DNA from: Mobula hypostoma
Lineage: Eukaryota
Direction of reading: 5' to 3'
Length of the DNA stretch: 64,000 bases
NCBI RefSeq assembly: GCF_963921235.1
Contig: NC_086097.1
Location: 50,036,001-50,100,000 of the forward strand
This document shows, piece after piece, positions 26,346-57,876 of the stretch. The translations under genes and the position numbers were made by a program. A model generated the notes under the pieces. The model searched no databases. It was not told the DNA's origin and was given only the letters and a program-made list of their open reading frames with translations. Within the stretch, counting starts at the first letter, position 1. Each line of letters begins with the position of its first letter.

Positions 26346-26349
26346 ACTC

Positions 26350-27190: not shown

Positions 27191-27194
27191 TTTT

Positions 27195-30320: not shown

Positions 30321-30332
30321 AAACCTTGTTGG

Positions 30333-30552
30333 TAGAAACCATAGAAACCATAGAAACCATAGAAACTACAGCACAGAAACAGGCCTTTTGGCCCTTCTTG
30401 GCTGTGCCAAACCATTTTCTGCCTAGTCCCACTGACCTGCACACAGACCATATCCCTCCATACACCTCCCATCCATGTATCTGTCCAATTTATTCTTAAA
30501 TGTTAAAAAAGAACCCGCATTTACCACCTCATCTGGCAGCTCATTCCATACT
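30333..30552 (-). mobile_element. Young CR1 3' end, same subfamily as 11862-13114
   Basis: Near-identical reverse complement of ~12915-13114, including the (ccatagaaa)n tail. Confidence 0.9.
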
Positions 30553-31134: not shown

Positions 31135-31211
31135 CAAGGGTTCGCAACCTGGGGTCCATGGATCCCTTGGTCAATGGTAAGGCTCCATGGCATAAAAATG
31201 GTTGGGAACCT
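31135..31211. mobile_element. 77-bp hAT(Charlie)-type MITE
   Basis: TIRs caagggttcgcaacc / ggttgggaacct; 8-bp TSD TTATAAAG/TTCTAAAG. Confidence 0.6.
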
Positions 31212-32332: not shown

Positions 32333-33431
32333 AAACACAAAATAATCTGCAGATGCTGTGATCAAAGCAACACTTGCAGTACGGTGGATGAACTTAGCAG
32401 GTCGGGCAGCATCAGTTAGAAACGATGAATCGACGTTTCGGGCTGGAACCCTTCGTCACGACTGAAGAATGAAAGATGGGGAAGGATTTGAAGAGTGATT
32501 GTAGCTTCAGTTGAAAGACCAGTAATTTGAAAGACAAAGGGGTGGGGATTAACGCGGTGGATCCAGCACATTATCCTCCGCAACTTCCACCACCTTCAAC
32601 AGGACCCCACCACTAAGCACATCTTTCCCTCTCCACCCCTCTCCACTTTCTGCAGGGATCGATCCCTCTGCGACTCCCTTATCCACACGTCCATCCCCAC
32701 TGATCTCCCACCCGGCACTTATCCCTGTAAGCGTAAGTGCTACACCTGTCCCTACACCTCATCTCTTGCAGCCATTCAGGGCCCCAAACAGTCCTTCCAG
32801 GTGAGACAACACTTCACTTGTGAGTCTGTTAGGGTCATTAATTGCATCCGGTGCTCCCGGTGTGGCCTCCTCTACATCGGTGAAACCTGACGCAGATTGG
32901 GGGACTGCTTCGTCGAGCACCTCCACTCCGTCCGCCACAACAGGCAGGATCTCCTGGTAGCCACTCACTTCAACTCTGCTCCCCATTCCCATTCAGATAT
33001 GTCCCTACATGGCTTCCTCTACTGCCATGATGAGGCTAAACTCAGGTTGGAGGAGCAACACCTCATATACCATCTAGGTAGTCTCCAGCCCCTTGGTATA
33101 AACATAGAATTCTCCAACTTCTGGCAATTCCCTCCCCCTCCCTTCCTCTATCCCTATTTCACTTTGCCCCCTCCCCCAGCTCCCGCATGGTTCCGCTTCC
33201 TTCTTCTACTACCCATTGTTTTCAGGGCTATGACGTCAATCCTTCCCCTCCCCCACCCCGTTGTCTTTCAAATTACTAGTCTTTCAACTGAAGCTACAAG
33301 CATTCTTCAAGTCCTTCCCCATCTTTCACTCTTCAGACTTGACGAAGGGTTCCGGCCCGAAACGTCGACTCATTGTTTCTAACTGATGCTGCCTGACCTG
33401 CTGAGTTCATCCAGCGTACTGAAAGTGTTGC
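32333..33431 (+). mobile_element. 5'-truncated Penelope-like element (GIY-YIG endonuclease) with inverted pLTRs
   Basis: CSRCGLLYIGET, FVEHL, VATHFN and QPLGIN motifs; inverted repeat 32350-32548 vs 33248-33431; 13-bp TSD TTGGATCCAATAT (32320-32332 and 33432-33444). Confidence 0.88.
33334..33371 (+). ncRNA. Degenerate hammerhead motif in the Penelope pLTR (second copy on the minus strand at ~32428-32465)
   Basis: UUGACGA-AGGGUUCCGGCCC-GAAAC-GUC-GACU; core position C3 is altered in both copies (U and G). Confidence 0.5.
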
Positions 33432-34031
33432 TTGGATCCAATATGAAAGAATGTGCTGGCATTAGAAAGGGTGGAGAGTTGGTTTTCACGAATGATCCTC
33501 AAAATGAAAGTGTTAACATGTGAGGAACGTTTGATGGCTCTGGGCCTGCACTCACTGGAGTTTAGAAGAATGAGGTGGGAGCTTATTGATCCCACCAGAT
33601 ATTGAACGGCAAAGCCAGAGTGGATGTGGAGATGATGTTTAAAATAGTGGCATTGTCTAAGAAGAGATGGCACAGCCTGAAAATACTGCAGAAGGATGTC
33701 CCTTTAAAGCAGAGAAAAGGAGGGATTTCCTTAACCAGAGGATTGTGAACCTTTGGATTTCTTTCCCACAGATGGCACTGGAGAACATTTAAAGTGACAG
33801 TTGTTGATTTGAAAGAGTATAAAAGCTTACGAGGAAAAGGCAAGGGAATAGGATTCAGAGATAAAATAAATCAGCCCTGATAGAAAAGTGGATCGCATTT
33901 AATAGGCTGAATGGACTAATTCTGCAACTACGTCTTATAGTATTAATTCCAATGTTCCATTATGAACCGCTGTATCTATGGTTGGTAATTCGACTCCAAA
34001 TTTAAAAATTAGATTATATAAATATCAGTAC

Positions 34032-37000
34032 CTGGTTCTCTGGCAGAATCTGAGTCCTGTAAGGGTGAAACGACTTCCTTTGGTGTTGTAAAGCCAAAGT
34101 CCACATCTGGAAATGTAAATGTAGAAACTCCAGTTGCTTGCATTTTAACTTCTGGCATTTTCAAGTGATCTCCATTCACTGTGTTAACATCTATTGAATC
34201 AGTATCCACACTCAGTCTTGCTGCTTCAACATTAAGGCCTGGGCTTTTGAAGCCCACTGGCAAACTTGTAATCTCACTTGTTGTTGCAATATCAGGGGGA
34301 ATAATTCCAAATTTTGACAATTTAAATTTCGCAATTTTTATTTTTCCTCTGCTTCCTTCATCTTCCTCAACAGCACTGTCGAGACAAGCTTCAGATTGCG
34401 GCGGCAAGACTTCAACAGTTTCACGTTTCACATACAAAACAGGTGATATTGCAACAGGTGCAGAACTTTCAACAGGCTTTGTCATTGAAACATTTATCTC
34501 TGGCTTTTTCACATCCATATCCACCTCTGGACCTTTAAATTTGGGAAGAGATATTCCAAATGAAGGCATTTTCATGGATGGCATTTTAAACCCACCACCA
34601 TGACTTTTCATCTTCCCATCAGCGGATTCCATATCCACATCTATTTCAGGTGCCTGGATGTCGGTACTAATGGCTTGAAGGTCCTTTGACATTTCTGGTA
34701 AAGAAACATCAACATCAGGCTTCTCTACGGCCACATCAATGTCAAATTTACCTTCCACCTTCGGGAGAGATACATCTATTGATGGCTTTTCAATCTTTGG
34801 CATTTTTAGACTGACTTCCGGTCCCTCCACATGTGTACATCTGACACCAGTTTCAACTTCTAACTTGCCTGGTTGTATATCGCCTTCTGGAATTTTAATA
34901 TCAGCATCAAGTTTTGGGAGAGTAATATCAGTTTTAGGCAAGCTGACATCAAGACTCATTTTTGGAGATTTAATATCAGGTGCAGAAACTCCAAATTTTG
35001 GGAACTTCATTTTCCCTCTTTTGCGTTCAATATCCACTTGCGATGAATCTACATCAACTTCACACTCTGGAGCGGACACTTCAGGCATTTTGCCCTCTAT
35101 CTCCACTTCAAGCTTTATCATTGAAACATCAATTTCTGGCTTTTTCGCGTCCATATCCACCTCTGGACATTTGAATTTGGGAAGAGATATTCCAAATGAA
35201 GGCATTTTCATGGATGGCATTCTAAATTTATCACCATGACTTTTGATCTTCCCATCAGCAGATTCAATATCCACATCTAGTTCAGGTGCCTGGATGTCAG
35301 TACTAATGGCTTGAAGGTCCTTTGACATTTCTGGTAAAGAAACATCAAAATCAGGCTTCTCTACGGCAACATCAGTGTCAAATTTACCTACCACCTTCAG
35401 GAGAGATACATCTGTTGAAGGCTTTTCAACCTTTGTTGTTTTCAGACTGACTTCCGGTCCCTCCACATGTATACCCCCGATCCCAATTTCACCTTCTAAC
35501 TTGCCTGGTTGTATATCGCCTTCTAGAATTTTAATATCAGCATCAATTTTTGGGAGAGTAATATCAGCTTTAGGCAAGCTGACATCAAGACTCATTTTTG
35601 GAGGTTTAATGTCAGGTGCAGAAATTCCAAATTTTGGCACCTTAAATTTTGGGACCTTCATTGTCCCACTTTTGCCTTCAATATCCACTTGCAATGAATC
35701 TACATCAACTTCACACTCTGGAGCGGACACTTCAGACATTTTGCCCTCAATCTCCACTTCAGGCTTTGTCATTGAAACATCGATGGCTGGCTTTTTTACA
35801 TCCGTATCCATGTCTGGACCTTTGAATTTGGGAAGAGATATTCCAAATGAAGGCATTTTCATGGATGGCATTTTAAACTTCCCACCATGACTTTTCATCT
35901 TCCCATCGGCAGATTCAATATCCACATCTATTTCAGGTGCCTGGATGTCAGTACTAATGACTTGAAGGTCCTTTGACATTTCTGGTAAAGAAACACCAAC
36001 ATCAGGCTTCTCTACGGCCACATCAATGTCAACTTTACATTCCACCTTCGGGAGAGATACATCTGTTGATGGCTTTTCAAACTTTGGCTTTTTTAGACTG
36101 ACTTCCAGACCCTGCACATGTATACCTCCGACACCAATTTCACCACCTAACTTGCTTGGATGTATATCAGCTTCTGGCATTTCAATATCAGCATTTGGTT
36201 TTGGGAGAGTAATATCAGTTTTAGGCAAGCTGACATCAAGACTCATTTTCGGAGCTTTAATATCAGGTGCAGAAATTCCAAATTTTGGCACTTTTGTTTT
36301 TCCTCTTTTGCCTTCAATATCCACTTGCGATGAATCCACATCAAGTTCACACTCAGGAGCGGACACTTCAGGCATTTTGCCCTCGATCTCCAATTCAGGC
36401 TTTGTCATTGAAACATCTATGTCTGGCTTTTTCGCGTCCATATCCACCTCTCGACCTTTGAATTTGGGAAGAGATATTCCAAATGAAGGCATTTTCATGG
36501 ATGGCATTTTAAATTTACCACCATGACTTTTCATCTTCCCATCAGCAGATTCAATATCCACATCTATTTCAGGTGCCTGGATGTCAGTACTAATGGCTTG
36601 AAGGTCCTTTGACATTTCTGGTAAAGAAACATCAAAATCAGGCTTCTCTACGGCCACATCAATGTCAACTTTACCGTCCACCTTCGGGAGAGATTCATCT
36701 ATTGATGGCTTTTCAATCTTTGGCATATTTAGACTGACTTCAGGATCCTCCACATGTATACCTCCGACACCAATTTCACCTTCTAACTTGCCTGGTTGTA
36801 TATCGCCCTCTGGAATTTTAATATCAGCATCAGGTTTTGGGAGAGTAATATCAGTTTTAGGCACGCTGACATCAAGACTCATTTTCGGAGCTTTAATATC
36901 AGGTGCAGACATTCCAAATTTTGGCACTTTCATTTTCCCTCTTTTGCCTTCAATATCCACTTGCAATGAATCCACATCAAGTTCACACTTGGGAGCGGAC

Positions 37001-40000
37001 ACTTCAGGCATTTTGCCCTCGATCTCTGCTTCAGCCTTTGTCATTGAAACATTTATGTCAGGCGTTTTCGCGTCTATATCCACCTCTGGACCTTTGAATT
37101 TGGGAGGAGATATTCCAAATGAAGGCATTTTCATGGATGGCATTTTAAACTTCCCACCATGACTTTTGATCTTCCCATCAGCGGATTCAATATCCACATC
37201 CATTTCAGGTGCCTGGATGTCAGTACTAGTGGCTTGAAGGTCCTTTGACATTTCTGGTAAAGAAACATGAACATAAGGCTTTTCTACGGCTACATCAATG
37301 TCAACTTTACCTTCCACCTTCGGGAGAGATACATCTGTTGATGGCTTTTCAATCTTTGGCATTTTTAGACTGACTTCAGGATTTTCAGGTTTTGGGAGAG
37401 TAATATCAGTTTTAGGCAAGCTGACATCAAGACTCATTTTCGGAGCTTTAATATCAGGTGCAGAAATTCCAAATTTTGGCACTTTAATTTTTCCTCTTTT
37501 GCCTTCAATATCCACTTGCGATGAATCCACATCAAGTTCACACTCACGAGCGGACACTTCAGGCATTTTGCCCTCTATCTCCACTTCAGGCTTTGTCATT
37601 GAAACATCTATGTCTGGCTTTTTTACGTCCATATCCACCTCTGGGCCTTTGAATTTGGGAAGAGATATTCCAAATGAAGGCATTTTCATGGATGGCATTT
37701 TAAACTTCCCACCATGAATTTTGATCTTCCCATCAGCGGCTTCACTATCCACATCTATTTCAGGTGCCTGGATGTCAGTGCTAATGGCTTGTAGATCCGT
37801 TGACATTTCTGGAACTGAAACGTCAACATCAGGCTTCTCAACAGCCACATCAATGTCAACATTACCTTCCACCTTCGGGAGAGATACATCTGTTGATGGC
37901 TTTTCAATCTTTGGCATTTTTAGACTAACTTCAGGACCCTCCACATGTATACCTCTGACACCAATTTCAGCTTCTAACTTGCCTGGTTGTATATCGCCTT
38001 CTGGAATTTTAATATCAGCATCAAGTTTTGGGAGAGTAATATCAGTTTTAGGCAAGCTGACATCAAGACTCATTTTCGGAGCTTTAATATCAGGTGCAGA
38101 AATTCCAAATTTGGGCACATTAAATTTTGGGACCTTCATTTTTTCTCTTTTGCCTTCAATATCCACTTGCGATGAATCCACATCAAGTTCACACTCTGGA
38201 GCGGACACTTCAGGCATTTTGCCCTCAATCTCCACTTCGGGCTTTGTCATTGAAACATCTATGTCTGGCTTTTTCGCGTCCATATCCACCTCTGGACCTT
38301 TGAATTTGTGAAGAGATATTCCAAATGATGGCATTTTCATGGATGGCATTCTAAATTTACCACCATGACTTTTCATCTTCCCATCAGCAGATTCAATATC
38401 CACATCTATTTCAGGTGCCTGGGCTTGAAGGTCCTTTGACATTTCTGGTAAAGAAACACCAACATCAGGCTTTTCTACGACTACATCAATGTCAACTTTA
38501 CCTTCCACCTTCGGGAGAGATACATCTGTTGATGGCTTTTCAATCTTTGGCATTTTTAGACTAACTTCAGGACCCTCCACATGTATACCTCCAACACCAA
38601 TTTCACCTTCTAACTTGCCTGGTTTTATATCGCCTTCTGGAATTTTAATATCAGCATCAAGTTTTGGGAGAGTAATATCAGTTTTAGGCAAGCTGACATC
38701 AAGACTCATTTTCGGAGCTTTAATATCAGGTGCAGAAATTCCAAATTTTGGCACCTTAAATTTTGGGACCTTCATTTTCCCTCTTTTGCCTTCAATATCC
38801 ACTTGCAATGAATCTACATCAACTTCACACTCTGCAGCGGAGACTTCAGGCATTTTGCCCTCGATCTCCAATTCAGGCTTTGTCATTGAAACATCTATGT
38901 CTGGCTTTTTTACGTCCATATCCACCCTTGGACCTTTGAATTTGGGAAGAGATATTCCAAATGAAGGCATTTTCATGGATGGTATTTTAAACTTCCCACC
39001 ATGACTTTTGATCTTCCCATCAGCGGATTCAATATCCACATCTATTTCGGGTGCCTGGATGTCAGTAATAATGGCTTGTAGATCCGTTGACATTTCTGGA
39101 ACTGAAACCTCAACATCAGGCTTCTCTACAGCCACATCAATGTCAACTTTACCTTCCACCTTCGGGAGAGATACATCTGTTGATGGCTTTTCAATCTTTG
39201 GCATTTTTAGACTAACTTCAGGACCCTCCACATGTTTACCTCCGACACCAATTTCACCTTCTAACTTGCCTGGTTGTATATCGCCTTCTGGAATTTTAAT
39301 ATCAGCATCAAGTTTTGGGAGAGTAATATCAGTTTTAGGCAAGCTGACATCAAGACTCATTTTCGGAGCTTTAATATCAGGTGCACAAATTCCAAATGTT
39401 GGCACTTTCATTTTTCTTCTTTTTCCTTCAATATCCACTTGCGATGAATCCACATCACGTTCACACTCAGGAGCGGACACTTCAGGCATTTTGCCCTCGA
39501 TCTCCAATTCAGGCTTTGTCATTGAAACATCTATGTCTGGCTTTTTCGCGTCTATATCCACCACTGGACCTTTAAATTTGGGAAGAGATATTCCAAATGA
39601 AGGCATTTTCATGGATGGCATTTTAAATTTACCACCATGACTTTTCATCTTCCCATCAGCAGATTCAATATCCACATCTATTTCAGGTGCCTGGATGTCA
39701 GTACTAATGGCTTGAAGGTCCTTTGACATTTCTGGTAAAGAAACATCAATTTCACGCTTTTCTACGGCTACATCAATGTCAACTTTACCTTCCACCTTCG
39801 GGAGAGATACATCTGTTGATGGCTTTTCAATCTTTGGCATTTTTAGACTGACTTCAGGACCCTCCACATGTATACCTCCGACACCAATTTCACCTTCTAA
39901 CTTGCCTGGTTGTATATTGCCTTCTGGAATTTTAATATCAGCATCAGGTTTTGGGAGAGTAATATCAGTTTCAGGCAAGCTGACATCAAGGCTCATTTTC

Positions 40001-43000
40001 AGAGCTTTAATATCAGGTGCAGAAATTCCAAATCTGGGCACCTTAAATTTTGGGACCTTCATTTTCCCTCTTTTGCCTTCAATATCCACTTGCAATGAAT
40101 CTACATCAACTTCACACTCTGGAGCGGAGACTTCAGGCATTTTGCCCTCTATCTCCACCTCAGGCTTTGTCATTGAAACATCTATCTCTGGCTTTTTGAC
40201 GTCCATATCCACCCCTGGACCTTTGAATTTGGGAAGAGATATTCCAAATGAAGGCATTTTCATGGATGGCATTTTAAACTTCCCACCATGACTTTTGATC
40301 TTCCCATCAGCGGATTCAATATCCACATCTATTTCAGGTGCCTGGATGTCAGTACTAATGGCTTGTAGATCCGTTGACATTTCTGGAACTGAAACCTCAA
40401 CATCAGGCTTCTCTACGGCCACATCAATGTCAACTTTACGTTCCGCCTTCGGGAGCGATACATCTATTGATGGCTTTTTAATCATTGGCATTTTTAGGCT
40501 GCCTTCTGGACCCTCCACATGTATACCTCCGACACCAATTTCACCTGCTAACTTGCCTGGTTGTATATCGCCTTCTGGAATTTTAATAGCAGCATCAGGT
40601 TTTGGGAGAGTAATATCAGTTTTAGGAAAGCTGACATCAAGACTCATTTTCGGAGCTTTAATATCAGGTGCAGAAATTCCAAATTTTGGCACTTTCATTT
40701 TTCCTCTTTTTCCTTCAATATCCACTTGCGATGAATCCACATCAAGTTCACACTCAGGAGCGGACACTTCAGGCATTTTGCCCTTGATCTCCACTTCAGG
40801 CTTTGTCATGGAAACATCTATGTCTGGCTTTTTCGCGTCCATATCCACCTCTGGGCCTTTGAATTTGGGAAGAGATATTCCAAATGAAGGCATTTTCATG
40901 GATGGCATTTTAAACTTCCCACCATGACTTTTGATCTTCCCATCAGCAGATTCAATATCCACATCTATTTCAGGTGCCTGGATGTCAGTACTAATGGCTT
41001 GAAGGTCCTTTGACATTTCTGGTAAAGAAACATCAACTTCACACTTTTCTACGGCTACATCAATGTCAACTTTACCTTCCACCTTCGGGAGAGATACATC
41101 TGTTGATGGCTTTTCAATCTTTGGCATTTTTAGACTGACTTCAGGCCCCTCCACATGTATACCTCCGACACCAATTTCACCTTCTAACTTGCCTGGTTGT
41201 ATATTGCCTTCTGGAATTTTAATATCAGCATCAGGTTTTGGGAGAGTAATATCAGTTTTAGGCAAGCTGACATCAAGACTCATTTTCGGAGCTTTAATAT
41301 CAGGTGCAGAAATTCCAAATTTGGGCACCTTAAATTTTGGGACCTTCATTTTCCCTCTTTTGCCTTCAATATCCACTTGCAATGAATCTACATCAAGTTC
41401 ACACTCAGGAGCGGACACTTCAGGCATTTTGCCCTCGATCTCCAATTCAGGCTTTGTCATTGAAACATCTATGTCTGGCTTTTTTACGTCCATATCCACC
41501 TCTGGGCCTTTGAATTTGGGAAGAGATATTCCAAATGAAGGCATTTTCATGGATGGCATTTTAAACTTCCCACCATGACTTTTGATCTTCCCATCAGCGG
41601 ATTCAATATCCACATCTATTTCAGGTGCCTGGATGTCAGTACTAATGGATTGTAGATCCGTTGACATTTCTGGAACTGAAACCTCAACATCAGGCTTCTC
41701 TACGGCCACATCAATGTCAACTTTACCTTCCACCTTCGGGAGCGATACATCTATTGATGGCTTTTTAATCATTGGCATTTTTAGGCTGACTTCTGGACCC
41801 TCCACATGTATACCTCCGACACCAATTTCACCTTCTAACTTGCCTGGTTGTATATCGCCTTCTGGAATTTTAATAGCAGCATCAGGTTTTGGGAGAGTAA
41901 TATCAGTTTTAGGAAAGCTGACATCAAGACTCATTTTCGGAGCTTTAATATCAGGTGCAGAAATTCCAAATGTTGGCACTTTCATTTTTCTTCTTTTTCC
42001 TTCAATATGCACTTGCGGTGAATCTACATCAAGTTCACTCTCAGGAGCGGACACTTCAGGCATTTTGCCCTCGATCTCCAATTCAGGCTTTGTCATTGAA
42101 ACATCTATGTCTGGCTTTTTTACGTCCATATCCACCTCTGGGCCTTTGAATTTGGGAAGAGATATTCCAAATGAAGGCATTTTCATGGATGGCATTTTAA
42201 ACTTCCCACCATGACTTTTGATCTTCCCATCAGCAGATTCAATATCCACATCTATTTCAGGTGCCTGGATGTCAGTACTAATGGCTTGAAGGTCCTTTGA
42301 CATTTCTGGTAAAGAAACATCAACTTCACGCTTTTCTACGGCTACATCAATGTCAACTTTACCATCCACCTTCGGGAGAGATACATCTGTTGATGGCTTT
42401 TCAATCTTTGGCATTTTTAGACTGACTTCAGGACCCTCCACATGTATACCTCCGACACCAATTTCACCTTCTAACTTGCCTGGTTGTATATCGCCTTCTG
42501 GAATTTTAATAGCAGCATCAGGTTTTGGGGGAGTAATATCAGTTTTAGGAAAGCTGACATCAAGTCTCATTTTCGGAGCTTTAATATCAGGTGCAGAAAT
42601 TCCAAATTTTGGCACTTTCATTTTTCCTCTTTTTCCTTCAATATCCACTTGCGATGAATCCACATCAAGTTCACACTCAGGAGCGGACACTTCAGGCATT
42701 TTGCCCTCGATCTCCAATTCAGGCTTTGTCATTGAAACATCTATGTCTGGCTTTTTTACGTCCATATCCAGCTCTGGGCCTTTGAATTTGGGAAGAGATA
42801 TTCCAAATGAAGGCATTTTCATGGATGGCATTTTAAACTTCCCACCATGACTTTTGATCTTCCCATCAGCGGATTCAATATCCACATCTATTTCAGGTGC
42901 CTGGATGTCAGTACTAATGGCTTGTAGATCCGTTGACATTTCTGGAACTGAAACCTCAACATCAGGCTTCTCTACGGCCACATCAATGTCAACTTTACCT

Positions 43001-46000: not shown

Positions 46001-49000
46001 AATGAAGGCATTTTCATGGATGGCATTTTAAACTTCCCACCATGACTTTTGATCTTCCCATCAGCGGATTCAATATCCACATCTATTTCGGGTGCCTGGA
46101 TGTCAGTACTAATGGCTTGTAGATCCGTTGACATTTCTGGAACTGAAACCTCAACATCAGGCTTCTCTACAGCCACATCAATGTCAACTTTACCTTCCAC
46201 CTTCAGGAGAGATACATCTGTTGATGGCTTTTCAATCTTTGGCATTTTTACATTAACTTCAGGACCCTCCACATGTATACCTCCAACACCAATTTCACCT
46301 TCTAACTTGCCTGGTTTTATATCGCCTTCTGGAATTTTAATATCAGCATCAAGTTTTGGGAGAGTAATATCAGTTTTAGGCACGCTGACATCAAGACTCA
46401 TCTTCGGAGCTTTAATATCAGGTGCAGAAATTCCAAATTTTGGCACCTTAAATTTTGGGACCTTCATTTTCCCTCTTTTGCCTTCAATATCCACTTGCAA
46501 TGAATCTACATCAACTTCACACTCCGGAGCGGAGACTTCAGGCATTTTGCCCTCTATCTCCGCTTCAGGCTTTGTCATTGAAACATCTATGTCTGGCTTT
46601 TTTCCGTCCATATCCACCCCTGGACCTTTGAATTTGGGAAGAGATATTCCAAATGAAGGCATTTTCATAGATGGCATTTTAAACTTCCCACCATGACTTT
46701 TGATCTTCCCATCAGCGGATTCAATATCCACATGTATTTCAGGTGCCTGGATGTCAGTACTAATGGCTTGTAAATCCGTTGAAATTTCTGGAACTGAAAC
46801 CTCAACATCAGGCTTCTCTACGGCCACATCAATGTCAACTTTACCTTCCACCTTCGGGAGCGATACATCTATTGATGGCTTTTTAATCTTTGGCATTTTT
46901 AGACTGACTTCTGGACCCTCCACATGTATACCTCCGACACCAATTTCACCTTCTAACTTGCCTGGTTGTATATCGCCTTCTGGAATGTTAATATCAGCAT
47001 CAGGTTTTGGGAGAGTAATATCAGTTTTAGGCAAGCTGACATCAAGATTCATTTTCGGAGCTTTAAAATCAGGTGCAGAAATTCCAAATTTTGGCACTTT
47101 CATTTTTCCTCTTTTTCCTTCAATATCCACTTGCGATGAATCCACATCAAGTTCACACTCAGGAGCGGACACTTCAGGCATTTTGCCCTCGATCTCCAAT
47201 TCAGGCTTTGTCATTGAAACATCTATGTCTGGCTTTTTTGCGTCCATATCCACCTCTCGACCTTTGAACTTGTGAAGAGATATTCCAAATGAAGGCATTT
47301 TCATGGATGGCATTTTAAATTTACCACCATGACTTTTCAACTTCCCATCAGCAGATTCAATATCCACATCTATTTCAGGTGCCTGGATGTCAGTACTAAC
47401 GGCTTGAAGGTCCTTTGACATTTCTGGTAAAGAAACATCAACATCAGGCTTTTCTACGGCCACATCAATGTCAACTTTACCTTCCACCTTCGGGATCGAT
47501 ACATCTATTGATGGCTTTTCAATCTTCGGCATTTTTAGGCTGACTTCTGGACCCTCCACATGTATACCTCCGACACCAATTTCACCTTCTAACTTGCCTG
47601 GTTGTATATCGCCTTCTGCAATTTTAATATCAGCATCAGATTTTGGGAGAGTAATATCAGTTTTAGGCAAGCTGACATCAAGACTCATTTTCGGAGCTTT
47701 AATATCAGGTGCAGAAATTCCAAATTTGGGCACATTAAATTTTGGGACCTTAATTTTTTCTCTTTTGCCTTCAATATCCACTTGCGATGAATCCACATCA
47801 AGTTCACACTCAGGAGCGGACACTTCAGGCATTTTGCCCTCAATCTCCACTTCGGGCTTTGTCATTGAAACATCTATGTCTGGCTTTTTCGCGTCCATAT
47901 CCACCTCTGGACCTTTGAATTTGTGAAGAGATATTCCAAATGAAGGCATTTTCATGGATGGCATTCTAAATTTACCACCATGACTTTTCATCTTCCCATC
48001 AGCAGATTCAATATCCACATCTATTTCAGGTGCCTGGGCTTGAAGGTCCTTTGACATTTCTGGTAAAGAAACACCAACATCAGGCTTTTCTACGACTACA
48101 TCAATGTCAACTTTACCTTCCACCTTCGGGAGAGATACATCTGTTGATGGCTTTTCAATCTTTGGCATTTTTAGACTAACTTCAGGACCCTCCACATGTA
48201 TACCTCCAACACCAATTTCACCTTCTAACTTGCCTGGTTTTATATCGCCTTCTGGAATTTTAATATCAGCATCAAGTTTTGGGAGAGTAATATCAGTTTT
48301 AGGCAAGCTGACATCAAGACTCATTTTCGGAGCTTTAATATCAGGTGCAGAAATTCCAAATTTTGGCACCTTAAATTTTGGGACCTTCATTTTCCCTCTT
48401 TTGCCTTCAATATCCACTTGCAATGAATCTACATCAACTTCACACTCTGCAGCGGAGACTTCAGGCATTTTGCCCTCTATCTCCACTTCAGGCTTTGTCA
48501 TTGAAACATCTATGTCTGGCTTTTTTACGTCCATATCCACCCTTGGACCTTTGAATTTGGGAAGAGATATTCCAAATGAAGGCATTTTCATGGATGGTAT
48601 TTTAAACTTCCCACCATGACTTTTGATCTTCCCATCAGCGGATTCAATATCCACATCTATTTCGGGTGCCTGGATGTCAGTAATAATGGCTTGTAGATCC
48701 GTTGACATTTCTGGAACTGAAACCTCAACATCAGGCTTCTCTACAGCCACATCAATGTCAACTTTACCTTCCACCTTCGGGAGAGATACATCTGTTGATG
48801 GCTTTTCAATCTTTGGCATTTTTAGACTAACTTCAGGACCCTCCACATGTTTACCTCCGACACCAATTTCACCTTCTAACTTGCCTGGTTGTATATCGCC
48901 TTCTGGAATTTTAATATCAGCATCAAGTTTTGGGAGAGTAATATCAGTTTTAGGCAAGCTGACATCAAGACTCATTTTCGGAGCTTTAATATCAGGTGCA

Positions 49001-52000
49001 CAAATTCCAAATGTTGGCACTTTCATTTTTCTTCTTTTTCCTTCAATATCCACTTGCGATGAATCCACATCACGTTCACACTCAGGAGCGGACACTTCAG
49101 GCATTTTGCCCTCGATCTCCAATTCAGGCTTTGTCATTGAAACATCTATGTCTGGCTTTTTCGCGTCTATATCCACCACTGGACCTTTAAATTTGGGAAG
49201 AGATATTCCAAATGAAGGCATTTTCATGGATGGCATTTTAAATTTACCACCATGACTTTTCATCTTCCCATCAGCAGATTCAATATCCACATCTATTTCA
49301 GGTGCCTGGATGTCAGTACTAATGGCTTGAAGGTCCTTTGACATTTCTGGTAAAGAAACATCAATTTCACGCTTTTCTACGGCTACATCAATGTCAACTT
49401 TACCTTCCACCTTCGGGAGAGATACATCTGTTGATGGCTTTTCAATCTTTGGCATTTTTAGACTGACTTCAGGCCCCTCCACATGTATACCTCCGACACC
49501 AATTTCACCTTCTAACTTGCCTGGTTGTATATTGCCTTCTGGAATTTTAATATCAGCATCAGGTTTTGGGAGAGTAATATCAGTTTCAGGCAAGCTGACA
49601 TCAAGGCTCATTTTCGGAGCTTTAATATCAGGTGCAGAAATTCCAAATTTGGGCACCTTAAATTTTGGGACCTTCATTTTCCCTCTTTTGCCTTCAATAT
49701 CCACTTGCAATGAATCTACATCAAGTTCACACTCAGGAGCGGACACTTCAGGCATTTTGCCCTCGATCTCCAATTCAGGCTTTGTCATTGAAACATCTAT
49801 GTCTGGCTTTTTTACGTCCATATCCACCTCTGGGCCTTTGAATTTGGGAAGAGATATTCCAAATGAAGGCATTTTCATGGATGGCATTTTAAACTTCCCA
49901 CCATGACTTTTGATCTTCCCATCAGCGGATTCAATATCCACATCTATTTCAGGTGCCTGGATGTCAGTACTAATGGATTGTAGATCCGTTGACATTTCTG
50001 GAACTGAAACCTCAACATCAGGCTTCTCTACGGCCACATCAATGTCAACTTTACCTTCCACCTTCGGGAGCGATACATCTATTGATGGCTTTTTAATCAT
50101 TGGCATTTTTAGGCTGACTTCTGGACCCTCCACATGTATACCTCCGACACCAATTTCACCTTCTAACTTGCCTGGTTGTATATCGCCTTCTGGAATTTTA
50201 ATAGCAGCATCAGGTTTTGGGAGAGTAATATCAGTTTTAGGAAAGCTGACATCAAGACTCATTTTCGGAGCTTTAATATCAGGTGCAGAAATTCCAAATG
50301 TTGGCACTTTCATTTTTCTTCTTTTTCCTTCAATATGCACTTGCGGTGAATCTACATCAAGTTCACACTCAGGAGCGGACACTTCAGGCATTTTGCCCTC
50401 GATCTCCAATTCAGGCTTTGTCATTGAAACATCTATGTCTGGCTTTTTTACGTCCATATCCACCTCTGGGCCTTTGAATTTGGGAAGAGATATTCCAAAT
50501 GAAGGCATTTTCATGGATGGCATTTTAAACTTCCCACCATGACTTTTGATCTTCCCATCAGCAGATTCAATATCCACATCTATTTCAGGTGCCTGGATGT
50601 CAGTACTAATGGCTTGAAGGTCCTTTGACATTTCTGGTAAAGAAACATCAATTTCACGCTTTTCTACGGCTACATCAATGTCAACTTTACCATCCACCTT
50701 CGGGAGAGATACATCTATTGATGGCTTTTCAATCTTTGGCATTTTTAGACTGACTTCAGGACCCTCGACATATATACCTCCGACACCAATTTCACCTTCT
50801 AACTTGCCTGGTTGTATATTGCCTTCTGGAATTTTAATAGCAGCATCGGGTTTTGGGAGAGTAATATCAGTTTGAGGCAAGCTGACATCAAGACTCATTT
50901 TCGGAGCTTTAATATCAGGTGCAGAAATTCCAAATTTGGGCACCTTAAATTCTGGGACCTTCATTTTCCCTCTTTTGCCTTCAATATCCACTTGCAATGA
51001 ATCTACATCAACTTCACACTCTGGAGCGGAGACTTCAGGCATTTTGCCCTCTATCACCACTTCAGGCTTTGTCATTGAAACATCTATGTCTGGCTTTTTT
51101 ACGTCCATATCCACCTCTGGGCCTTTGAATTTGGGAAGAGATATTCCAAATGAAGGCATTTTCATGGATGGCATTTTAAACTTCCCACCATGACTTTTGA
51201 TCTTCCCATCAGCGGATTCAATATCCACATCTATTTCGGGTGCCTGGATATCAGTACTAATGGCTTGTAGATCCGTTGACATTTCTGGAACTGAAACCTC
51301 AACATCAGGCTTCTCTACGGCCACATCAATGTCAACTTTACCTTCCACCTTCGGGAGCGAAATATCTATTGATGGCTTTTCAATCTTTGGTATTTTTAGG
51401 CTGACTTCTGGACCCTCCATATGTATACCTCCGACACCAATTTCACCTTCTAACTTGCCTGGTTGTATATCGCCTTCTGGAATTTTAATATCAGCATCAG
51501 GTTTTGGGAGAGTAATATCAGTTTTAGGCAAGCTGACATCAAGATTCATTTTCGGAACTTTAATATCAGGTGCAGAAATTCCAAATTTTGGCACTTTCAT
51601 TTTTCCTCTTTTTCCTACAATATCCACTTGCGGTGAATCCACATCAAGTTCACACTCAGGAGCGGACACTTCAGGCATTTTGCCCTTGATCTCCACTTCA
51701 GGCTTTGTCATGGAAACATCTATGTCTGGCTTTTTCGCGTCCATATCCACCTCTGGGCCTTTGAATTTGGGAAGAGATATTCCAAATGAAGGCATTTTCA
51801 TGGATGGCATTTTAAATTTACCACCATGACTTTTCATCTTCCCATCAGCAGATTCAATATCCACATCTATTTCAGGTGCCTGGATGTCAGTACTAACGGC
51901 TTGAAGGTCCTTTGACATTTCTGGTAAAGAAACATCAACATCACGCTTTTCTACGGCTACATCAATGTCAACTTTACCTTCCACCTTCGGGAGAGATACA

Positions 52001-55000
52001 TCTGTTGATGGCTTTTCAATCTTTGGCATTTTTAGACTGACTTCAGGACCCTCCACATGTATACCTCCGACACCAATTTCACCTTCTAACTTGCCTGGTT
52101 TTATATCGCCTTCTGGAATTTTAATATCAGCATCAAGTTTTGGGAGAGTAATATCAGTTTTAGGCAAGCTGACATCAAGACTCATTTTCGGAGCTTTAAT
52201 ATCAGGTGCAGAAATTCCAAATTTTGGCACCTTAAATTTTGGGACCTTCATTGTCCCACTTTTGCCTTCAATATCCACTTGCAATGAATCTACATCAACT
52301 TCACACTCTGGAGCGGACACTTCAGACATTTTGCCCTCAATCTCCACTTCAGGCTTTGTCATTGAAACATCGATGGCTGGCTTTTTTACATCCTTATCGA
52401 CCTCTGGACCTTTGAATTTGGGAAGAGATATTCCAAATGATGGCATTTTAAACTTACCACCATGACTTTTGATCTTCCCATCAGTGGATTCAATATCCAC
52501 ATCTATTTCAGGTGCCTGGATGTCAGTACTAATGGCTTGAAGGTCCTTTGACATTTCTGCTAAAGAAACACCAACATCAGGCTTCTCTACGGCCACATCA
52601 ATGTCAACTTTACCTTCCACCTTCGGGAGAGATACATCTGTTGATGGCTTTTCAATCTTTGGCATTTTTAGACTGACTTCAGGACCCTCCACATGTATAC
52701 CTCCGACACCAATTTCACCTTCTAACTTGCCTGGTTTTATATCGCCTTCTAGAATTTTAATATCAGCATCAGGTTTTGGGAGAGTAATATCAGTTTTAGG
52801 CAAGCTGACATCAAGACTCATTTTCGGAGCTTTAAAATCAGGTGCAGAAATTCCAAATTTTGGCACTTTCATTTTTCCTCTTTTTCCTTCAATATCCACT
52901 TGCGATGAATCCACATCAAGTTCACACTCACGAGCGGACACTTCAGGCATTTTGCCCTCGATCTCCACTTCAGGCTTTGTCATTGAAACATCTATGTCTG
53001 GCTTTTTTACGTCCATATCCACCCCTGGACCTTTGAATTTGGGAAGAGATATTCCAAATGAAGGCATTTTCATGGATGGCATTTTAAACTTCCCACCATG
53101 ACTTTTGATCTTCCCATCAGCGGATTCAATATCCACATGTATTTCAGGTGCCTGGATGTCAGTACTAATGGCTTGTAAATCCGTTGACATTTCTGGAACT
53201 GAAACCTCAACATCAGGCTTCTCTACGGCCACATCAATGTCAACTTTACCTTCCACCTTCGGGAGCGATACATCTATTGATGGCTTTTTAATCATTGGCA
53301 TTTTTAGGCTGACTTCTGGACCCTCCACATGTATACCTCCGACACCAATTTCACCTTCTAACTTGCCTGGTTGTATATCGCCTTCTAGAATTTTAATATC
53401 AGCATCAGGTTTTGGGAGAGTAATATCAGTTTTAGGCAAGCTGACATCAAGACTCATTTTCGGAGCTTTAAAATCAGGTGCAGAAATTCCAAATTTTGGC
53501 ACTTTCATTTTTCCTCTTTTTCCTTCAATATCCACTTGCGATGAATCCACATCAAGTTCACACTCACGAGCGGACACTTCAGGCATTTTGCCCTCGATCT
53601 CCACTTCAGGCTTTGTCATTGAAACATCTATGTCTGGCTTTTTTATGTCCATATCCACCCCTGGACCTTTGAATTTGGGAAGAGATATTCCAAATGAAGG
53701 CATTTTCATGGATGGCATTTTAAACTTCCCACCATGACTTTTGATCTTCCCATCAGCGGATTCAATATCCACATCTATTTCGGGTGCCTGGATGTCAGTA
53801 CTAATGGCTTGTAGATCCGTTGACATTTCTGGAACTGAAACCTCAACATCAGGCTTCTCTACAGCCACATCAATGTCAACTTTACCTTCCACCTTCAGGA
53901 GAGATACATCTGTTGATGGCTTTTCAATCTTTGGCATTTTTACATTAACTTCAGGACCCTCCACATGTATACCTCCAACACCAATTTCACCTTCTAACTT
54001 GCCTGGTTTTATATCGCCTTCTGGAATTTTAATATCAGCATCAAGTTTTGGGAGAGTAATATCAGTTTTAGGCACGCTGACATCAAGACTCATCTTCGGA
54101 GCTTTAATATCAGGTGCAGAAATTCCAAATTTTGGCACCTTAAATTTTGGGACCTTCATTTTCCCTCTTTTGCCTTCAATATCCACTTGCAATGAATCTA
54201 CATCAACTTCACACTCCGGAGCGGAGACTTCAGGCATTTTGCCCTCTATCTCCGCTTCAGGCTTTGTCATTGAAACATCTATGTCTGGCTTTTTTCCGTC
54301 CATATCCACCCCTGGACCTTTGAATTTGGGAAGAGATATTCCAAATGAAGGCATTTTCATGGATGGCATTTTAAACTTCCCACCATGACTTTTGATCTTC
54401 CCATCAGCGGATTCAATATCCACATGTATTTCAGGTGCCTGGATGTCAGTACTAATGGCTTGTAAATCCGTTGAAATTTCTGGAACTGAAACCTCAACAT
54501 CAGGCTTCTCTACGGCCACATCAATGTCAACTTTACCTTCCACCTTCGGGAGCGATACATCTATTGATGGCTTTTTAATCTTTGGCATTTTTAGACTGAC
54601 TTCTGGACCCTCCACATGTATACCTCCGACACCAATTTCACCTTCTAACTTGCCTGGTTGTATATCGCCTTCTGGAATGTTAATATCAGCATCAGGTTTT
54701 GGGAGAGTAATATCAGTTTTAGGCAAGCTGACATCAAGATTCATTTTCGGAGCTTTAAAATCAGGTGCAGAAATTCCAAATTTTGGCACTTTCATTTTTC
54801 CTCTTTTTCCTTCAATATCCACTTGCGATGAATCCACATCAAGTTCACACTCAGGAGCGGACACTTCAGGCATTTTGCCCTCGATCTCCAATTCAGGCTT
54901 TGTCATTGAAACATCTATGTCTGGCTTTTTTGCGTCCATATCCACCTCTCGACCTTTGAACTTGTGAAGAGATATTCCAAATGAAGGCATTTTCATGGAT

Positions 55001-57876
55001 GGCATTTTAAACTTCCCACCATGACTTTTCATCTTCCCATCAGCAGATTCAATATCCACATCTATTTCAGGTGCCTGGATGTCAGTACTAACGGCTTGAA
55101 GGTCCTTTGACATTTCTGGTAAAGAAACATCAACATCAGGCTTTTCTACGGCCACATCAATGTCAACTTTACCTTCCACCTTCGGGATCGATACATCTAT
55201 TGATGGCTTTTCAATCTTCGGCATTTTTAGGCTGACTTCTGGACCCTCCACATGTATACCTCCGACACCAATTTCACCTTCTAACTTGCCTGGTTGTATA
55301 TCGCCTTCTGCAATTTTAATATCAGCATCAGATTTTGGGAGAGTAATGTCTGTTTTAGGCAAGCTGACATCAAGACTCATTTTCGGAGCTTTAATATCAG
55401 GTGCAGAAATTCCAAATTTGGGCACATTAAATTTTGGGACCTTAATTTTTTCTCTTTTGCCTTCAATATCCACTTGCGATGAATCCACATCAAGTTCACA
55501 CTCAGGAGCGGACACTTCAGGCATTTTGCCCTCAATCTCCACTTCGGGCTTTGTCATTGAAACATCTATGTCTGGCTTTTTCGCGTCCATATCCACCTCT
55601 GGACCTTTGAATTTGGGTAGATATATTCCAAATGAAGGCATTTTCATGGATGGCATTCTAAATTTACCACCATGACTTTTCATCTTCCCATCAGCAGATT
55701 CAATATCCACATCTATTTCAGGTGCCTGGATGTCAGCACGAATGGCTTGAAGGTCCTTTGACATTTCTGGTAAAGAAACATCAATATCAGGCTTTTCTAC
55801 GGCTGCATCTATGTCAACTTTACCTTCCACCTTCAGAAGAGATACATCTATTGATGGCTTTTCAACCTTTGGCATTTTTAGACTGCCTTCTGGACCCTCC
55901 ATATTTATACCTCTGACACCAATTTCACCTTCTGACTTTGCTGGTTGTATATCGGCTTCTGGAATTTTAATATCAATGTTAGGTTTTGGGTGCGAAATAT
56001 CAACTTTTGGCAAACTGCATTCAAGACTCATTTTTGGTGCTTTAATATCATTTGCAGAAATTCCAAGTTTTCGCCCTTTAAATTTGGGGAGCTTTGTAAT
56101 CCCTCTTTTGCCTTCAATATCTAGTTGTGGTGCATCTATATCAAGTTCACACTTTGGAGCAGCTATCTCAAGCATTTTTCCCTCTATCTCCATGTCAGAG
56201 TCTTTCTGTGAATTGACTAATTTTGGCTTTTTCCCATCTGTGTCCCTTTCTGGACCTTTGAATTTGGGAATAGAAACCCCAAAGGTTTGTGATTTCATGA
56301 CTGGCTTTTTGAACTGATCATCATGGCTTTTCATCTTCATGTCATCTGATTCAATGTCTACATCTATTGTTGGAGCCTTCTGATCCATTGATGTTTCTTT
56401 TATTGAAATTTCATATTTGGGCTTCTCTATTCCTCCATCGACATCAAGTTTACCTCTCTGCTTTAGCTCTGCCTCAGCTTTTGGGAAGGAAATGCCTTGT
56501 TCGGTCTGACTGATATTAAAGCTTCTATTTGGAGTTCCAATATCAGGTGCAGATATTGCCATTTTTGGTCCTTCATGAATGTCAGATAGCTTGGCTTCAA
56601 TGTTTGTATCCATTTGTTGAGATGGGGAAATTTGATATTTCTGGCTTTTGTTTTTTGATGTTTTTGATTTACTCCCTTTTTTGAGGTGTTTGCCTGAAAT
56701 TGCTTTTGAGTTCGCTGGATGGTTACTACTTTCTGTCATGAGCTCGCTGTCCCTGATTTCACCTTGATTGTTGCTCACGGATATTGCACTGTCATTTTGC
56801 TTTATCATGATATTCTGTTCCGGTACAATAGTTTGTTGCGCATTTGGTCCACTCTTTTGCTCATTCAACTTGTGTCGTACTTTTTTTTCTTCCATTAATG
56901 TAACAGTATATTCACTGCTTGCATGTGTCATGTCATCTTTGATTAGACTGACATCAATGGCAAGAGTAGAAGATGTGGACTCAGTTTGAGAGTTTTTATC
57001 TTTTGTTTCATTCATTTCCTGTTCTTTAATTTTCTGCTGCTTTTCAACCTTGGCTGTTTTGTTTTGTATTTCAAAAGCTTGCATTGAAATGTCAGTAACT
57101 TCCTTGCTTGTGCTTGTATCATACTCCTTTGGTAATGGTAAAATATCATCAGCCTTTACATCTGTAATGCTTTGTGAAATATCCTGTAGCATTGATTGAG
57201 AACATGTTCTTTCCTCTGGCAATTGATATGCTGTATTCTGTGTTGTTAGAATTGGTTCAGGAAGTACAAATTTAGCTATTTTGAGTTTAGGTATTTTCGC
57301 TTTAGATTCACTGTTAATCTTATCACATTCCATTTGTTCACTCTGATTAGCCAGCAATTGTTTAGTTTGAGTTGTGGTGATCATTATGGTGTTTGATTTT
57401 TGTTGTGTACCATGTACATTTGTTTGCAAATTGGCACATTCCACAACAGTGGAATCCTTCATTCCAATCAAAATTTCGTGCTTTACGTCTTCACAAGCTT
57501 CTTTGTTCTCTGTGTTTATATCTTTTGTACCCATATGTGGTAATTTTATTTTCCTTCTTGTTTTTTTCGCTTTCTGTGGGCTTTGTACTGGTTTTAAATG
57601 GGTTTTGATATCTGTGCCTGTAGCAGTGACATCATCCTGAACATGTTCTCCTGGCTCTGATAAGCTGTGAGATCTGACCAGTTTCTGTGTCTTTGATTTT
57701 TTAAAAGCTGGGAATTTGGGGCAGGAAAAGGTGATATCAGGTACATCCGTCTTCTTTGTCTTCCCCTTCTTGATGGTTTGTTGAATTTGTGGTCCTTCTG
57801 CATTCAATTCTTCGGCAATACCTCTTGCTTTTGATTTACTTCCATACAGTTTTATGAAAAAGTCTTCATCATGCCC
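34032..57876 (-). CDS. AHNAK2: AHNAK2-like protein, giant repeat-encoding exon (23,845 nt; acceptor phase 0, donor phase 1)
   Basis: Lies in the 8000-aa ORF 58011->34009. Repeats rich in KxP/PxF/DVSLPK are typical of the AHNAK/periaxin family. N-terminal 'FSCPKFPAFKKSK..RSHSLSE' resembles the recalled human AHNAK2 'LSWPKFQSIKSK..RSHSSSE'. Acceptor cttccctcag|GGGCAT at 57876; donor CCAG|gtactg at 34032. Confidence 0.9.
34470..56500 (-). repeat. Coding tandem array of ~34 units of 636/651 bp (212/217 aa)
   Basis: The SHGG landmark recurs at 34603, 35239, 35890, 36526, 37162, 37717, 38368 ... 55024, 55675, with a degenerate copy at ~56320. Spacings are 636 or 651 bp, with one of 555 bp. Confidence 0.97.

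What the first reader, a model, noticed from the sequence alone, without database searches (positions are those of the whole stretch)
34032..57876. 23.8-kb AHNAK2-like exon with an unusual 212/217-aa repeat period
Seen: one uninterrupted 23,845-nt exon with ~34 units. With the last exon it encodes ~8,270 aa before any upstream exons are counted. Known: human AHNAK has ~128-aa repeats and AHNAK2 ~165-aa repeats. Inference: this lineage built its array from a different, longer unit, making an exceptionally large coding exon.
Basis: partly seen in the sequence, partly recalled or inferred. Interest (0 to 1): 0.7.

Follow-up and report, generated by a model that had tools for sequence, protein, structure and literature searches.

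The report
Shark-and-ray AHNAK2 giant repeat exon
This is the cartilaginous-fish copy of the known giant scaffold gene AHNAK2: its 23.8-kb exon is real and is spliced to a separate last exon, but the roughly 215-residue repeat is the normal one for sharks and rays, and repeat length differs widely between vertebrate groups, so it is not a one-off invention.

Summary
Observation confirmed. The minus strand holds an 8,009-codon open frame; the exon 57,876-34,032 (23,845 nt) has AG/GT borders and 34 units of 212 or 217 aa (one of 185). Contigs of three probable-RNA runs join 34,032 exactly to a last exon at 22,011, giving 8,271 aa; a DNA run reads through both borders. The gene is AHNAK2: both ends match shark/skate orthologues and tetrapod AHNAK2, and sharks have separate AHNAK and periaxin genes. 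The claimed novelty mostly fails. Heptranchias, Amblyraja, Chiloscyllium and Scyliorhinus orthologues have 213-220-aa units. Family periods run from about 146 (perch-like fish) to 386 (turtles); 104 of 203 measurable hits exceed 217. Bird and turtle proteins reach 7,900 aa, and human mucin exons exceed 24 kb. The unit is three 72-aa modules, homogenised within species; four multi-unit blocks were duplicated recently. What remains of interest: this giant exon is internal (the human one appears terminal), skipping it would give a short PDZ-only protein (untested), and I found no paper surveying these periods. The 5' junction, internal continuity of the mRNA and synteny were not tested. The scan had no earlier AHNAK note.

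The parts
34032..57876 (-). Giant internal coding exon, 23,845 nt, 7,948 codons + 1 nt
   Evidence: Open frame, AG/GT borders; 3' border confirmed by spliced contigs; 5' border matches the point where orthologues pass from the PDZ exons into this segment
57877..57895 (-). Splice acceptor (pyrimidine tract + CAG) of the giant exon; the PDZ-coding exons lie upstream, outside the window
   Evidence: Sequence; no PDZ hit in 57.9-64 kb by tblastn or Pfam; junction not tested with reads
56332..57876 (-). Non-repeat N-terminal segment (aa 1-515 of the exon) with the basic post-PDZ motifs of AHNAK2
   Evidence: 47% identity over 485 aa to Amblyraja AHNAK2, 41% over 386 aa to Heptranchias; motif scores 15-27 bits against 8 bony-vertebrate AHNAK2 proteins, at most 5 against periaxin-clade proteins
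34609..56331 (-). Array of 34 repeat units (212/217 aa, one of 185), each three 72-aa modules; a partial 35th unit follows to about 34,470
   Evidence: Unit alignment; module analysis; mean 94% nucleotide identity among units 2-34
47640..55617 (-). First copies of four recently duplicated multi-unit blocks (55,617-53,290; 53,177-50,757; 50,771-49,366; 49,724-47,640)
   Evidence: 35 differences in 8,240 nt from the second copies, no indels
38025..47925 (-). Second copies of those blocks (47,925-45,598; 46,121-43,701; 42,443-41,038; 40,109-38,025)
22012..34031 (-). 12,020-nt GT..AG intron, rich in retrotransposon remnants
   Evidence: Skipped exactly in contigs of X5, X6, X13; entered from both sides by DNA run X1; LINE-type Pfam hits
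21041..22011 (-). Coding part of the last exon (323 aa) with the WFKFPK..FSSP and TSTARTEL motifs shared with AHNAK2 of other vertebrates
   Evidence: 49% identity to the Heptranchias C-terminus, weak hits to tetrapod AHNAK2 C-termini
19856..21040 (-). 3' UTR down to a candidate AATAAA at 19,861
   Evidence: Signal found; spliced contigs cover 21,040-20,600 and run past the laid stretch by 651 (X5) and 748 (X13) letters; the end point is inferred

Best explanation
This is the functional AHNAK2 orthologue of an elasmobranch (probably a ray). Small upstream exons (outside the window) supply a PDZ domain. The 23.8-kb exon supplies a basic post-PDZ segment and about 7,250 residues of acidic, Pro/Lys/Val/Asp-rich repeats, and a separate last exon supplies the conserved C-terminal motifs. 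SHOWN: the open frame, the unit structure, the 3' splice, the orthology, the within-species homogeneity of units. INFERRED from human work: the protein dimerises through its domain-swapped PDZ and acts as a very long, largely flexible cortical scaffold whose ends carry the specific binding motifs. INFERRED from the sequences: the array turns over by unequal exchange and conversion. A basic module of about 60-85 aa is grouped into a higher-order unit (three modules, 217 aa, in elasmobranchs); whichever higher-order unit is being amplified in a lineage becomes its 'period'. The 212-aa form is a derived 15-nt deletion variant of the 217-aa unit that has spread through this array. Selection keeps the frame and the composition, not the unit length.
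For: Best hits are Heptranchias (59%) and Amblyraja AHNAK2 (56%); the next proteins are at 35% or less. Heptranchias has three family members: an AHNAK (P0054), a periaxin-clade protein (P0284) and the orthologue of this gene (P0001); Callorhinchus has periaxin (P0268) apart from AHNAK2 (P0123). In the PDZ tree AHNAK is split off at 100/100 and periaxins group at 81/94 without the orthologues of this gene. Module similarity: a-b aligns without gaps, z 7-12.5 against shuffles; circular autocorrelation peaks at 72 (z 4.7 here, 4.9 Heptranchias, 4.2 chimaera). Units are 79-90% identical within a species and 43-65% between species. All four indel types among units are multiples of 3 (15, 15, 15, 81 nt); dN/dS between units 0.38. 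Chimaera AHNAK2 mixes 159-, 168- and 231-aa units, the 159 form lacking 58 aa of the elasmobranch unit. A preprint ranks AHNAK first and periaxin eighth for fast repeat evolution (10.1101/2020.02.14.947036, passages).
Against: The PDZ exons of this very gene are not in the window, so PDZ evidence is through orthologues. The shark PDZ scores alike on human AHNAK2 and periaxin (99.1 vs 98.2 bits), and the tree does not resolve one AHNAK2 clade. A 58-84-aa sub-period reached z of 3 or more in only 9 of 17 representative units; turtle, cobra, smelt, dunnart and macaque units showed none. The rotation control for module similarity was beaten only narrowly (123 vs 112.5; 75 vs 72.5; 131 vs 122). Counting distinct variants gives a weaker ratio of 0.60. 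No functional or structural result was obtained for this protein; synteny could not be tested.
Confidence: 0.88

Rival explanations
1. The gene is real but the unit count (and so the 23.8 kb) is inflated by mis-assembly, for example two haplotypes of the array joined in tandem.
For: Four multi-unit blocks recur at 99.6% identity with exact runs up to 1,043 nt. Copy-number errors in mouse Ahnak2 assemblies are on record (PMC12903361, passage).
Against: The copies differ by 35 substitutions in 8,240 nt (17 synonymous, 18 not) with no indel. Contigs from two other samples of the same organism differ by 0 letters over 1,948 and 1,644 flanking bases, so allelic difference in the flanks looks much lower than 0.42%. 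The four blocks have four different offsets. Orthologues of 7,146 and 7,526 aa imply about 30 units.
Confidence: 0.12
2. The repeats fold into a chain of compact beta-rich domains (the old beta-propeller prediction), and the longer unit means a different fold or stoichiometry in this lineage.
For: A review reports the prediction of antiparallel strands and a propeller for human AHNAK2, stating that it is not proven (PMC8833689, passage). Units show weak 7-residue side peaks around the 72 lag.
Against: Periods range from 146 to 386 aa and units tolerate 5-, 27- and 58-aa deletions. The repeat region has no Trp, 3 Tyr, and is 42% P/E/V/K with net negative charge. No solved structure matches by sequence (best E 0.13). 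The related periaxin tail is described as predicted disordered (PMC7072810, passages).
Confidence: 0.2
3. The gene is a giant periaxin or an AHNAK paralogue rather than AHNAK2.
For: The shark PDZ matches human periaxin as well as AHNAK2; databases label the Heptranchias orthologue 'AHNAK-like' and a Hemiscyllium fragment 'periaxin-like'. The last exon scores 24 bits on Heptranchias periaxin.
Against: Separate AHNAK and periaxin-clade genes exist in the same shark. The C-terminus has the AHNAK2 motifs and lacks the AHNAK end. Post-PDZ motif scores favour AHNAK2.
Confidence: 0.04
4. The 'exon' is really several exons, or the array is spliced internally in most transcripts.
For: Two strong donor-like motifs lie inside the array (52,458 and 45,402); databases list many internally shortened isoform models for turtle and snake AHNAK2.
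Against: The frame is open throughout, every unit is intact coding repeat, and no strong acceptor pattern was found inside.
Confidence: 0.08

Closest known systems
AHNAK2 of sharks, skates and chimaera (Heptranchias perlo 'AHNAK-like' 7,526 aa; Amblyraja radiata AHNAK2 7,146 aa; Rhincodon, Chiloscyllium, Scyliorhinus, Callorhinchus models)
   Same: Collinear 213-220-aa unit in elasmobranchs, same post-PDZ segment, same C-terminal segment.
   Different: More units (34 against about 30), the 212-aa deletion variant dominates, recent block duplications; the chimaera uses mostly 159/168-aa units. These are automatic gene models, not studied genes.
Human AHNAK2 (5,795 aa; 24 units of about 165 aa; large exon of about 17,559 bp)
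   Same: PDZ - giant repeat exon - conserved C-terminal motifs (reviews PMC8833689, PMC10682155; macaque motifs).
   Different: Longer unit; larger exon; a 12-kb intron puts the C-terminal motifs in their own exon, whereas the human large exon is not in a published list of internal exons over 10 kb (PMC3467050) and so appears terminal; of two C-terminal F-x-x-P motifs of tetrapods the first is eroded in elasmobranchs at the intron position.
AHNAK (AHNAK1)
   Same: Related low-complexity repeats; giant exon flanked by small exons, with a 17-kDa small isoform (PMC10682155, passage).
   Different: Distinct PDZ clade (100/100) and distinct C-terminus; period 192-196 in most sharks and rays sampled, about 128 in human per the review.
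Periaxin
   Same: Closest PDZ relative; long low-complexity tail; short and long splice forms (PMC7072810, passages).
   Different: 1,300-2,500 aa; separate gene in sharks and chimaera; lacks the post-PDZ motif pattern.
Giant coding-VNTR exons (MUC16 exon 3 over 21 kb, MUC4 alleles to 27.8 kb, MUC12 to 23,080 aa, titin over 17 kb)
   Same: Very long internal coding exon made of tandem repeats.
   Different: Unrelated sequence; some are longer (PMC3467050, PMC13345508, passages), so this exon is no record.

Membership tests
AHNAK2 | N-terminal PDZ domain of the AHNAK2/periaxin type | not testable with these tools
   PDZ exons lie outside the window. Orthologues carry it: Rhincodon PDZ matches PDB 4CN0 at E 1e-27.
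AHNAK2 | Giant central repeat region encoded by one very large exon | tested here: met
   34 units in one open frame of 23,845 nt; continuity in mRNA not tested.
AHNAK2 | C-terminal motifs (W-F-x-F-P-K..FSS and S/T-A-R-T-E-L) as in tetrapod AHNAK2 | tested here: met
   Present in the last exon; 43 of 120 proteins hit at E up to 1e-3, the listed ones all ending in the AHNAK2 manner.
AHNAK2 | Post-PDZ basic motif segment closer to AHNAK2 than to periaxin or AHNAK | tested here: met
   15-27 bits on 8 bony-vertebrate AHNAK2, 63-105 on 6 chondrichthyan orthologues, at most 5 on periaxin-clade proteins, none on AHNAK; macaque, dog and dunnart AHNAK2 gave no hit.
AHNAK2 | One-to-one orthology: separate AHNAK and periaxin genes exist in the same lineage | tested here: met
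   Heptranchias P0054 / P0284 / P0001; Callorhinchus P0268 / P0123.
AHNAK2 | Repeat unit of about 165 aa (as written for human) | tested here: not met
   212/217 here; but 165 holds only for some mammals (macaque, mangabey) and is no family-wide trait.
AHNAK2 | Conserved synteny with the human 14q32 neighbourhood | not testable with these tools
   No genome held; no neighbouring gene found among 124 plus-strand frames in 1-21 kb.
AHNAK (AHNAK1) | AHNAK-type C-terminal end and PDZ clade | tested here: not met
   AHNAK-labelled shark, toad and fish proteins share a different end; last exon scores about 0 on them.
Periaxin | PDZ in the periaxin clade, protein of 1,300-2,500 aa | tested here: not met
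   Orthologues fall outside the periaxin group (81/94); product over 8,200 aa.

The most novel reading that the evidence does not exclude
Elasmobranch AHNAK2 has a gene layout unlike the human one: its giant exon is a true internal cassette. Skipping it would join the phase-0 PDZ exon to the last exon out of frame, ending after four residues (FWER-stop) in the final exon, so the message would escape nonsense-mediated decay and make a small PDZ-only AHNAK2, the counterpart of small AHNAK and short periaxin. That would give a natural on/off switch between a protein of about 900 kDa and one of 13-25 kDa, and one of the longest non-mucin internal exons for studying exon definition. Together with the clade-by-clade change of period (146-386 aa), it would show that the AHNAK repeat is a length-tolerant tether and not a fixed fold.
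Probability: 0.2. Interest if true: 0.5.

Novelty: new member of a known kind. Interest (0 to 1): 0.25.

Why it matters
For this finding alone, little: it is an orthologue with the unit typical of its group. The comparative result has modest value. Reviews give 128 and 165 aa as the family's repeat lengths and mention a propeller fold; the survey here shows periods from about 146 to 386 aa, changing by clade, with in-frame deletions of up to 58 aa tolerated, which argues against a fixed-size fold and for concerted evolution of a roughly 72-aa module. A fully assembled 34-unit array with recent block duplications is a clean case for studying coding-repeat turnover, and a 23.8-kb internal exon with a confirmed 3' splice is a useful test case for large-exon recognition.

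Tried and rejected
Whole-genome search for synteny: no genome held. Pfam on 124 plus-strand frames of 42 aa or more in 1-21 kb found only retrotransposon families; of the 120 minus-strand frames there only 3 were scanned, and of 76 intron frames 13, so small exons of a neighbour could be missed. tblastn of orthologue N-termini and Pfam on all 36 minus-strand frames in 57.9-64 kb found no PDZ exon. Pfam hits on the repeat (DUF6470, DUF4097, PIH1_CS) treated as composition noise. No listed run is on record as RNA; the runs used are 'RNA?' guesses and X13 is flagged 'probably DNA', so the inference to RNA rests on the exact GT..AG join itself. The join is read from table 8; the printed part of table 5 did not list it. 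Exon skipping: each of the three contigs runs unbroken through the last-exon acceptor, so no skipped form was seen; contigs drop rare forms, so this is no proof of absence. AlphaFold2 on two units without alignment gave mean pLDDT 31.5: uninformative, not used, no fold search run. PDB sequence search of the repeat: nothing under E 0.1. ESM Atlas gave AHNAK-fragment clusters at 0.90-0.91 with low recognition: weak. 'Longest known coding exon' rejected: human MUC4 and MUC12 alleles are longer. 'Longest AHNAK2' not claimed: no hit exceeded 7,914 aa, but I cannot tell whether the collection holds longer proteins. Support values of the unit tree after re-rooting are unreliable; identities are used instead. 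The original paper on AHNAK splicing (de Morree 2012) was not held; I saw only its citation and a table row and a review's summary. Earlier findings of the scan: two unrelated notes, none on AHNAK.
Full report
OBSERVATION. A six-frame scan finds one frame far longer than any other: minus strand 58,038-34,009, 8,009 codons. Inside it an acceptor (pyrimidine tract + CAG) opens an exon at 57,876 and a GT donor closes it at 34,032: 23,845 nt, phase 0 in, phase 1 out. A second frame at 22,126-21,041 has an acceptor at 22,011 in the matching phase; the join gives 8,271 aa. The two other sense frames of the exon hold 442 and 1,001 stops. Splitting at a fixed anchor gives 34 units: 21 of 212 aa, 12 of 217 aa, one of 185 aa.

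SPLICING. I laid four runs on 20,600-34,600. In each of the three probable-RNA runs one contig joins 34,032 directly to 22,011 with adjacent record coordinates (X5 record 16, X6 record 23: same organism as the window, one study, 0 differing letters; X13 record 9: another organism and study, 21 differing letters in 1,933). The DNA run X1, which may be the window's source, reads through both borders into the intron. So the 12,020-nt intron is real. Indirect support: the exon's first residues align to the place where orthologues leave the PDZ segment (residue 212 of Amblyraja, 115 of Heptranchias), and a 122-aa Hemiscyllium model breaks off from its relatives at exactly that point. No PDZ exon lies in 57.9-64 kb. 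Adding the orthologues' N-termini would give about 8,385-8,480 aa (inference).

IDENTITY. A two-unit query against proteins of 4,404-14,016 aa gave 200 hits, 120 listed; Heptranchias (59%) and Amblyraja AHNAK2 (56%) stand far above the rest (35% or less). The N-terminal segment matches Amblyraja at 47% and the last exon matches Heptranchias at 49%; weaker last-exon hits are tetrapod AHNAK2 C-termini. The PDZ alone does not decide: the whale-shark PDZ scores 99.1 bits on human AHNAK2 and 98.2 on periaxin. A tree of 47 PDZ domains (47 of 51 chosen; four lacked a full PDZ match) splits AHNAK off at 100/100, groups periaxins at 81/94, and leaves the chondrichthyan orthologues outside both, in an unresolved set with the other AHNAK2 groups. 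Name look-ups show that the periaxin group holds a Callorhinchus periaxin and a second Heptranchias protein. Heptranchias thus has AHNAK, periaxin and this gene's orthologue as three genes. The motif scores of both ends favour AHNAK2. The animal is an elasmobranch, probably a ray (units group with the skate's). Synteny could not be tested.

IS THE PERIOD UNUSUAL? No. I measured the dominant period in all 241 proteins; 203 had a clear one and 104 of these exceed 217 (the set has many birds and redundant isoforms, and was found with this query, so it is not an even sample). Elasmobranch orthologues: Heptranchias 217, Amblyraja 217 with 215-222 variants, Scyliorhinus 215/213, Chiloscyllium plagiosum 217, Rhincodon a very weak 217; a 928-aa C. 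punctatum fragment showed none. Chimaera: 159, 168 and 231. Other AHNAK2-type proteins: many perch-like fish about 146, smelts 202, catfish, characins and a knifefish 209-216, arowana 354, squamates 236-243, turtles 386, birds mostly 335-367, mammals 151-175 (macaque 165; canids alternate 168 with 175/182). Proteins with the AHNAK-type end: sharks and rays mostly 192-196, toads 185, medaka 186. No mammalian AHNAK was among the hits, so 128 comes from a review (PMC10682155, passages). The longest hits are 7,914 (Natator) and 7,892 aa (Grus). For exon size, human MUC16 exon 3 exceeds 21 kb (PMC3467050, passages), and long-read alleles of MUC4 (27,843 bp) and MUC12 (to 23,080 aa) are longer than this exon (PMC13345508, passages).

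ANATOMY OF THE ARRAY. The 217-aa consensus is three modules of 72, 72 and 73 aa, each a basic K-x-P block followed by an acidic stretch; modules align with z 7-12.5 against shuffles, and the circular autocorrelation peaks at 72. The rotation control was passed only narrowly, and a 58-84-aa sub-period reached z of 3 in 9 of 17 representative units, so the module model is firm for chondrichthyans and non-mammalian AHNAK and weak elsewhere. Shark and skate units carry the five residues that the 212 form lacks, so 217 is the older state. Indels among units are 15, 15, 15 and 81 nt. Units 2-34 average 94% nucleotide identity, with pairwise dN/dS 0.38 (0.60 when each variant is counted once). Among units cut at a second anchor (32 here, 19 Heptranchias, 20 Amblyraja, 5 chimaera, 2 catshark; spans outside 150-240 aa dropped), identity is 79-90% within and 43-65% between species: concerted evolution. 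Four multi-unit blocks recur 7.1-9.6 kb downstream at 35 differences in 8,240 nt, 17 synonymous, no indels. That is less than the 1.1% between the two organisms and more than the 0 between samples of one organism, which fits a real recent duplication better than two haplotypes joined in error. Long reads would settle it; Ahnak2 copy-number errors are known in mouse assemblies (PMC12903361, passage).

HOW IT MOST LIKELY WORKS. From reviews of the human proteins (PMC8833689, PMC10682155, PMC7072810; passages only): AHNAK2 and periaxin PDZ domains form domain-swapped dimers, and AHNAK2 is linked to membrane and cytoskeletal organisation. I infer the same here: a PDZ-dimerised scaffold of about 900 kDa whose conserved ends bind partners and whose centre is a long spacer with repeated low-affinity sites. 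The repeat region is 42% P/E/V/K, net acidic, without Trp. The propeller fold predicted for the human repeat is unproven, and the spread of periods and tolerated deletions of 5, 27 and 58 aa argue against a fixed-size fold. A single-sequence AlphaFold2 model was uninformative (pLDDT 31.5). None of the function is shown here.

WHAT IS LEFT OF NOVELTY. (1) The giant exon is internal. A published list of human internal exons over 10 kb names only mucins and titin, so the human AHNAK2 large exon appears terminal. At the intron position shark and chimaera proteins differ in length by small blocks (by eye, Heptranchias, Rhincodon and Chiloscyllium have three residues more than this protein and Scyliorhinus; the chimaera about five more again), and the first of two C-terminal motifs of tetrapods is eroded there. 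This suggests an intron older than this species with a sliding acceptor; I could not read those genomes. (2) Skipping the exon would end the frame four residues into the last exon, a possible small PDZ-only form like small AHNAK; none was seen in the three contigs. (3) Seven literature searches found no paper on shark or ray AHNAK2 or on periods across vertebrates; one preprint already ranks AHNAK first for rapid repeat evolution. The library lacks most subscription papers, including the original AHNAK splicing paper, and I read no supplements, where that preprint's per-species repeat data may lie.

VERDICT. Real, correctly measured, correctly named; a new member of a known kind with the repeat unit typical of its group. 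Interest 0.25.

Noticed in passing
proteins P0004, P0007, P0010, P0023, P0026, P0042, P0061: Non-mammalian AHNAK (AHNAK1) has periods of about 180-196 aa, about three modules, against the 128 aa written for human; the textbook value looks mammal-specific.
   Followed up: partly
P0123, P0125, P0144 (Callorhinchus AHNAK2): The chimaera array mixes 159-, 168- and 231-aa units: a change of period caught midway.
   Followed up: partly
window 22,011 / 34,032 junction and orthologues: Shark and chimaera proteins differ by small blocks exactly at the intron position, and the first C-terminal F-x-x-P motif of tetrapods is eroded there in elasmobranchs.
   Followed up: partly
database names: Family names are unreliable: Heptranchias AHNAK2 and periaxin are both 'AHNAK-like', a Hemiscyllium AHNAK2 PDZ fragment is 'periaxin-like', many teleost AHNAK2 are 'AHNAK-like', and P0085 and P0209 carry unrelated enzyme names.
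   Followed up: partly
P0002 (Amblyraja AHNAK2 model): The model ends in the repeats and lacks the C-terminal segment, as expected if the last exon was missed.
   Followed up: no
window 52,458 and 45,402 (minus strand): Two strong donor-like motifs inside the array, in duplicated units 7 and 18, which also carry a 15-nt deletion.
   Followed up: no
window 1,880-3,840 (+): Broken LTR-retrotransposon remnant (zinc knuckle, RNase H-like and integrase Pfam hits).
   Followed up: no
window 471-1,385, 6,772-7,023, 11,898-15,316, 23,043-24,867 (+); 63,824-64,000 (-): LINE-type remnants (reverse transcriptase, endonuclease, esterase-like and ALKBH8_N Pfam hits).
   Followed up: no
window 8,677-9,356 and 59,892-60,593: Two clusters of short tandem arrays (periods 24-111) that look like copies of one repeat element.
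   Followed up: no
window 32,360-32,547 and 33,251-33,438: 188-bp inverted pair at 91% identity in the intron, 0.6-1.7 kb from the giant exon's donor; a high-copy repeat by depth.
   Followed up: no
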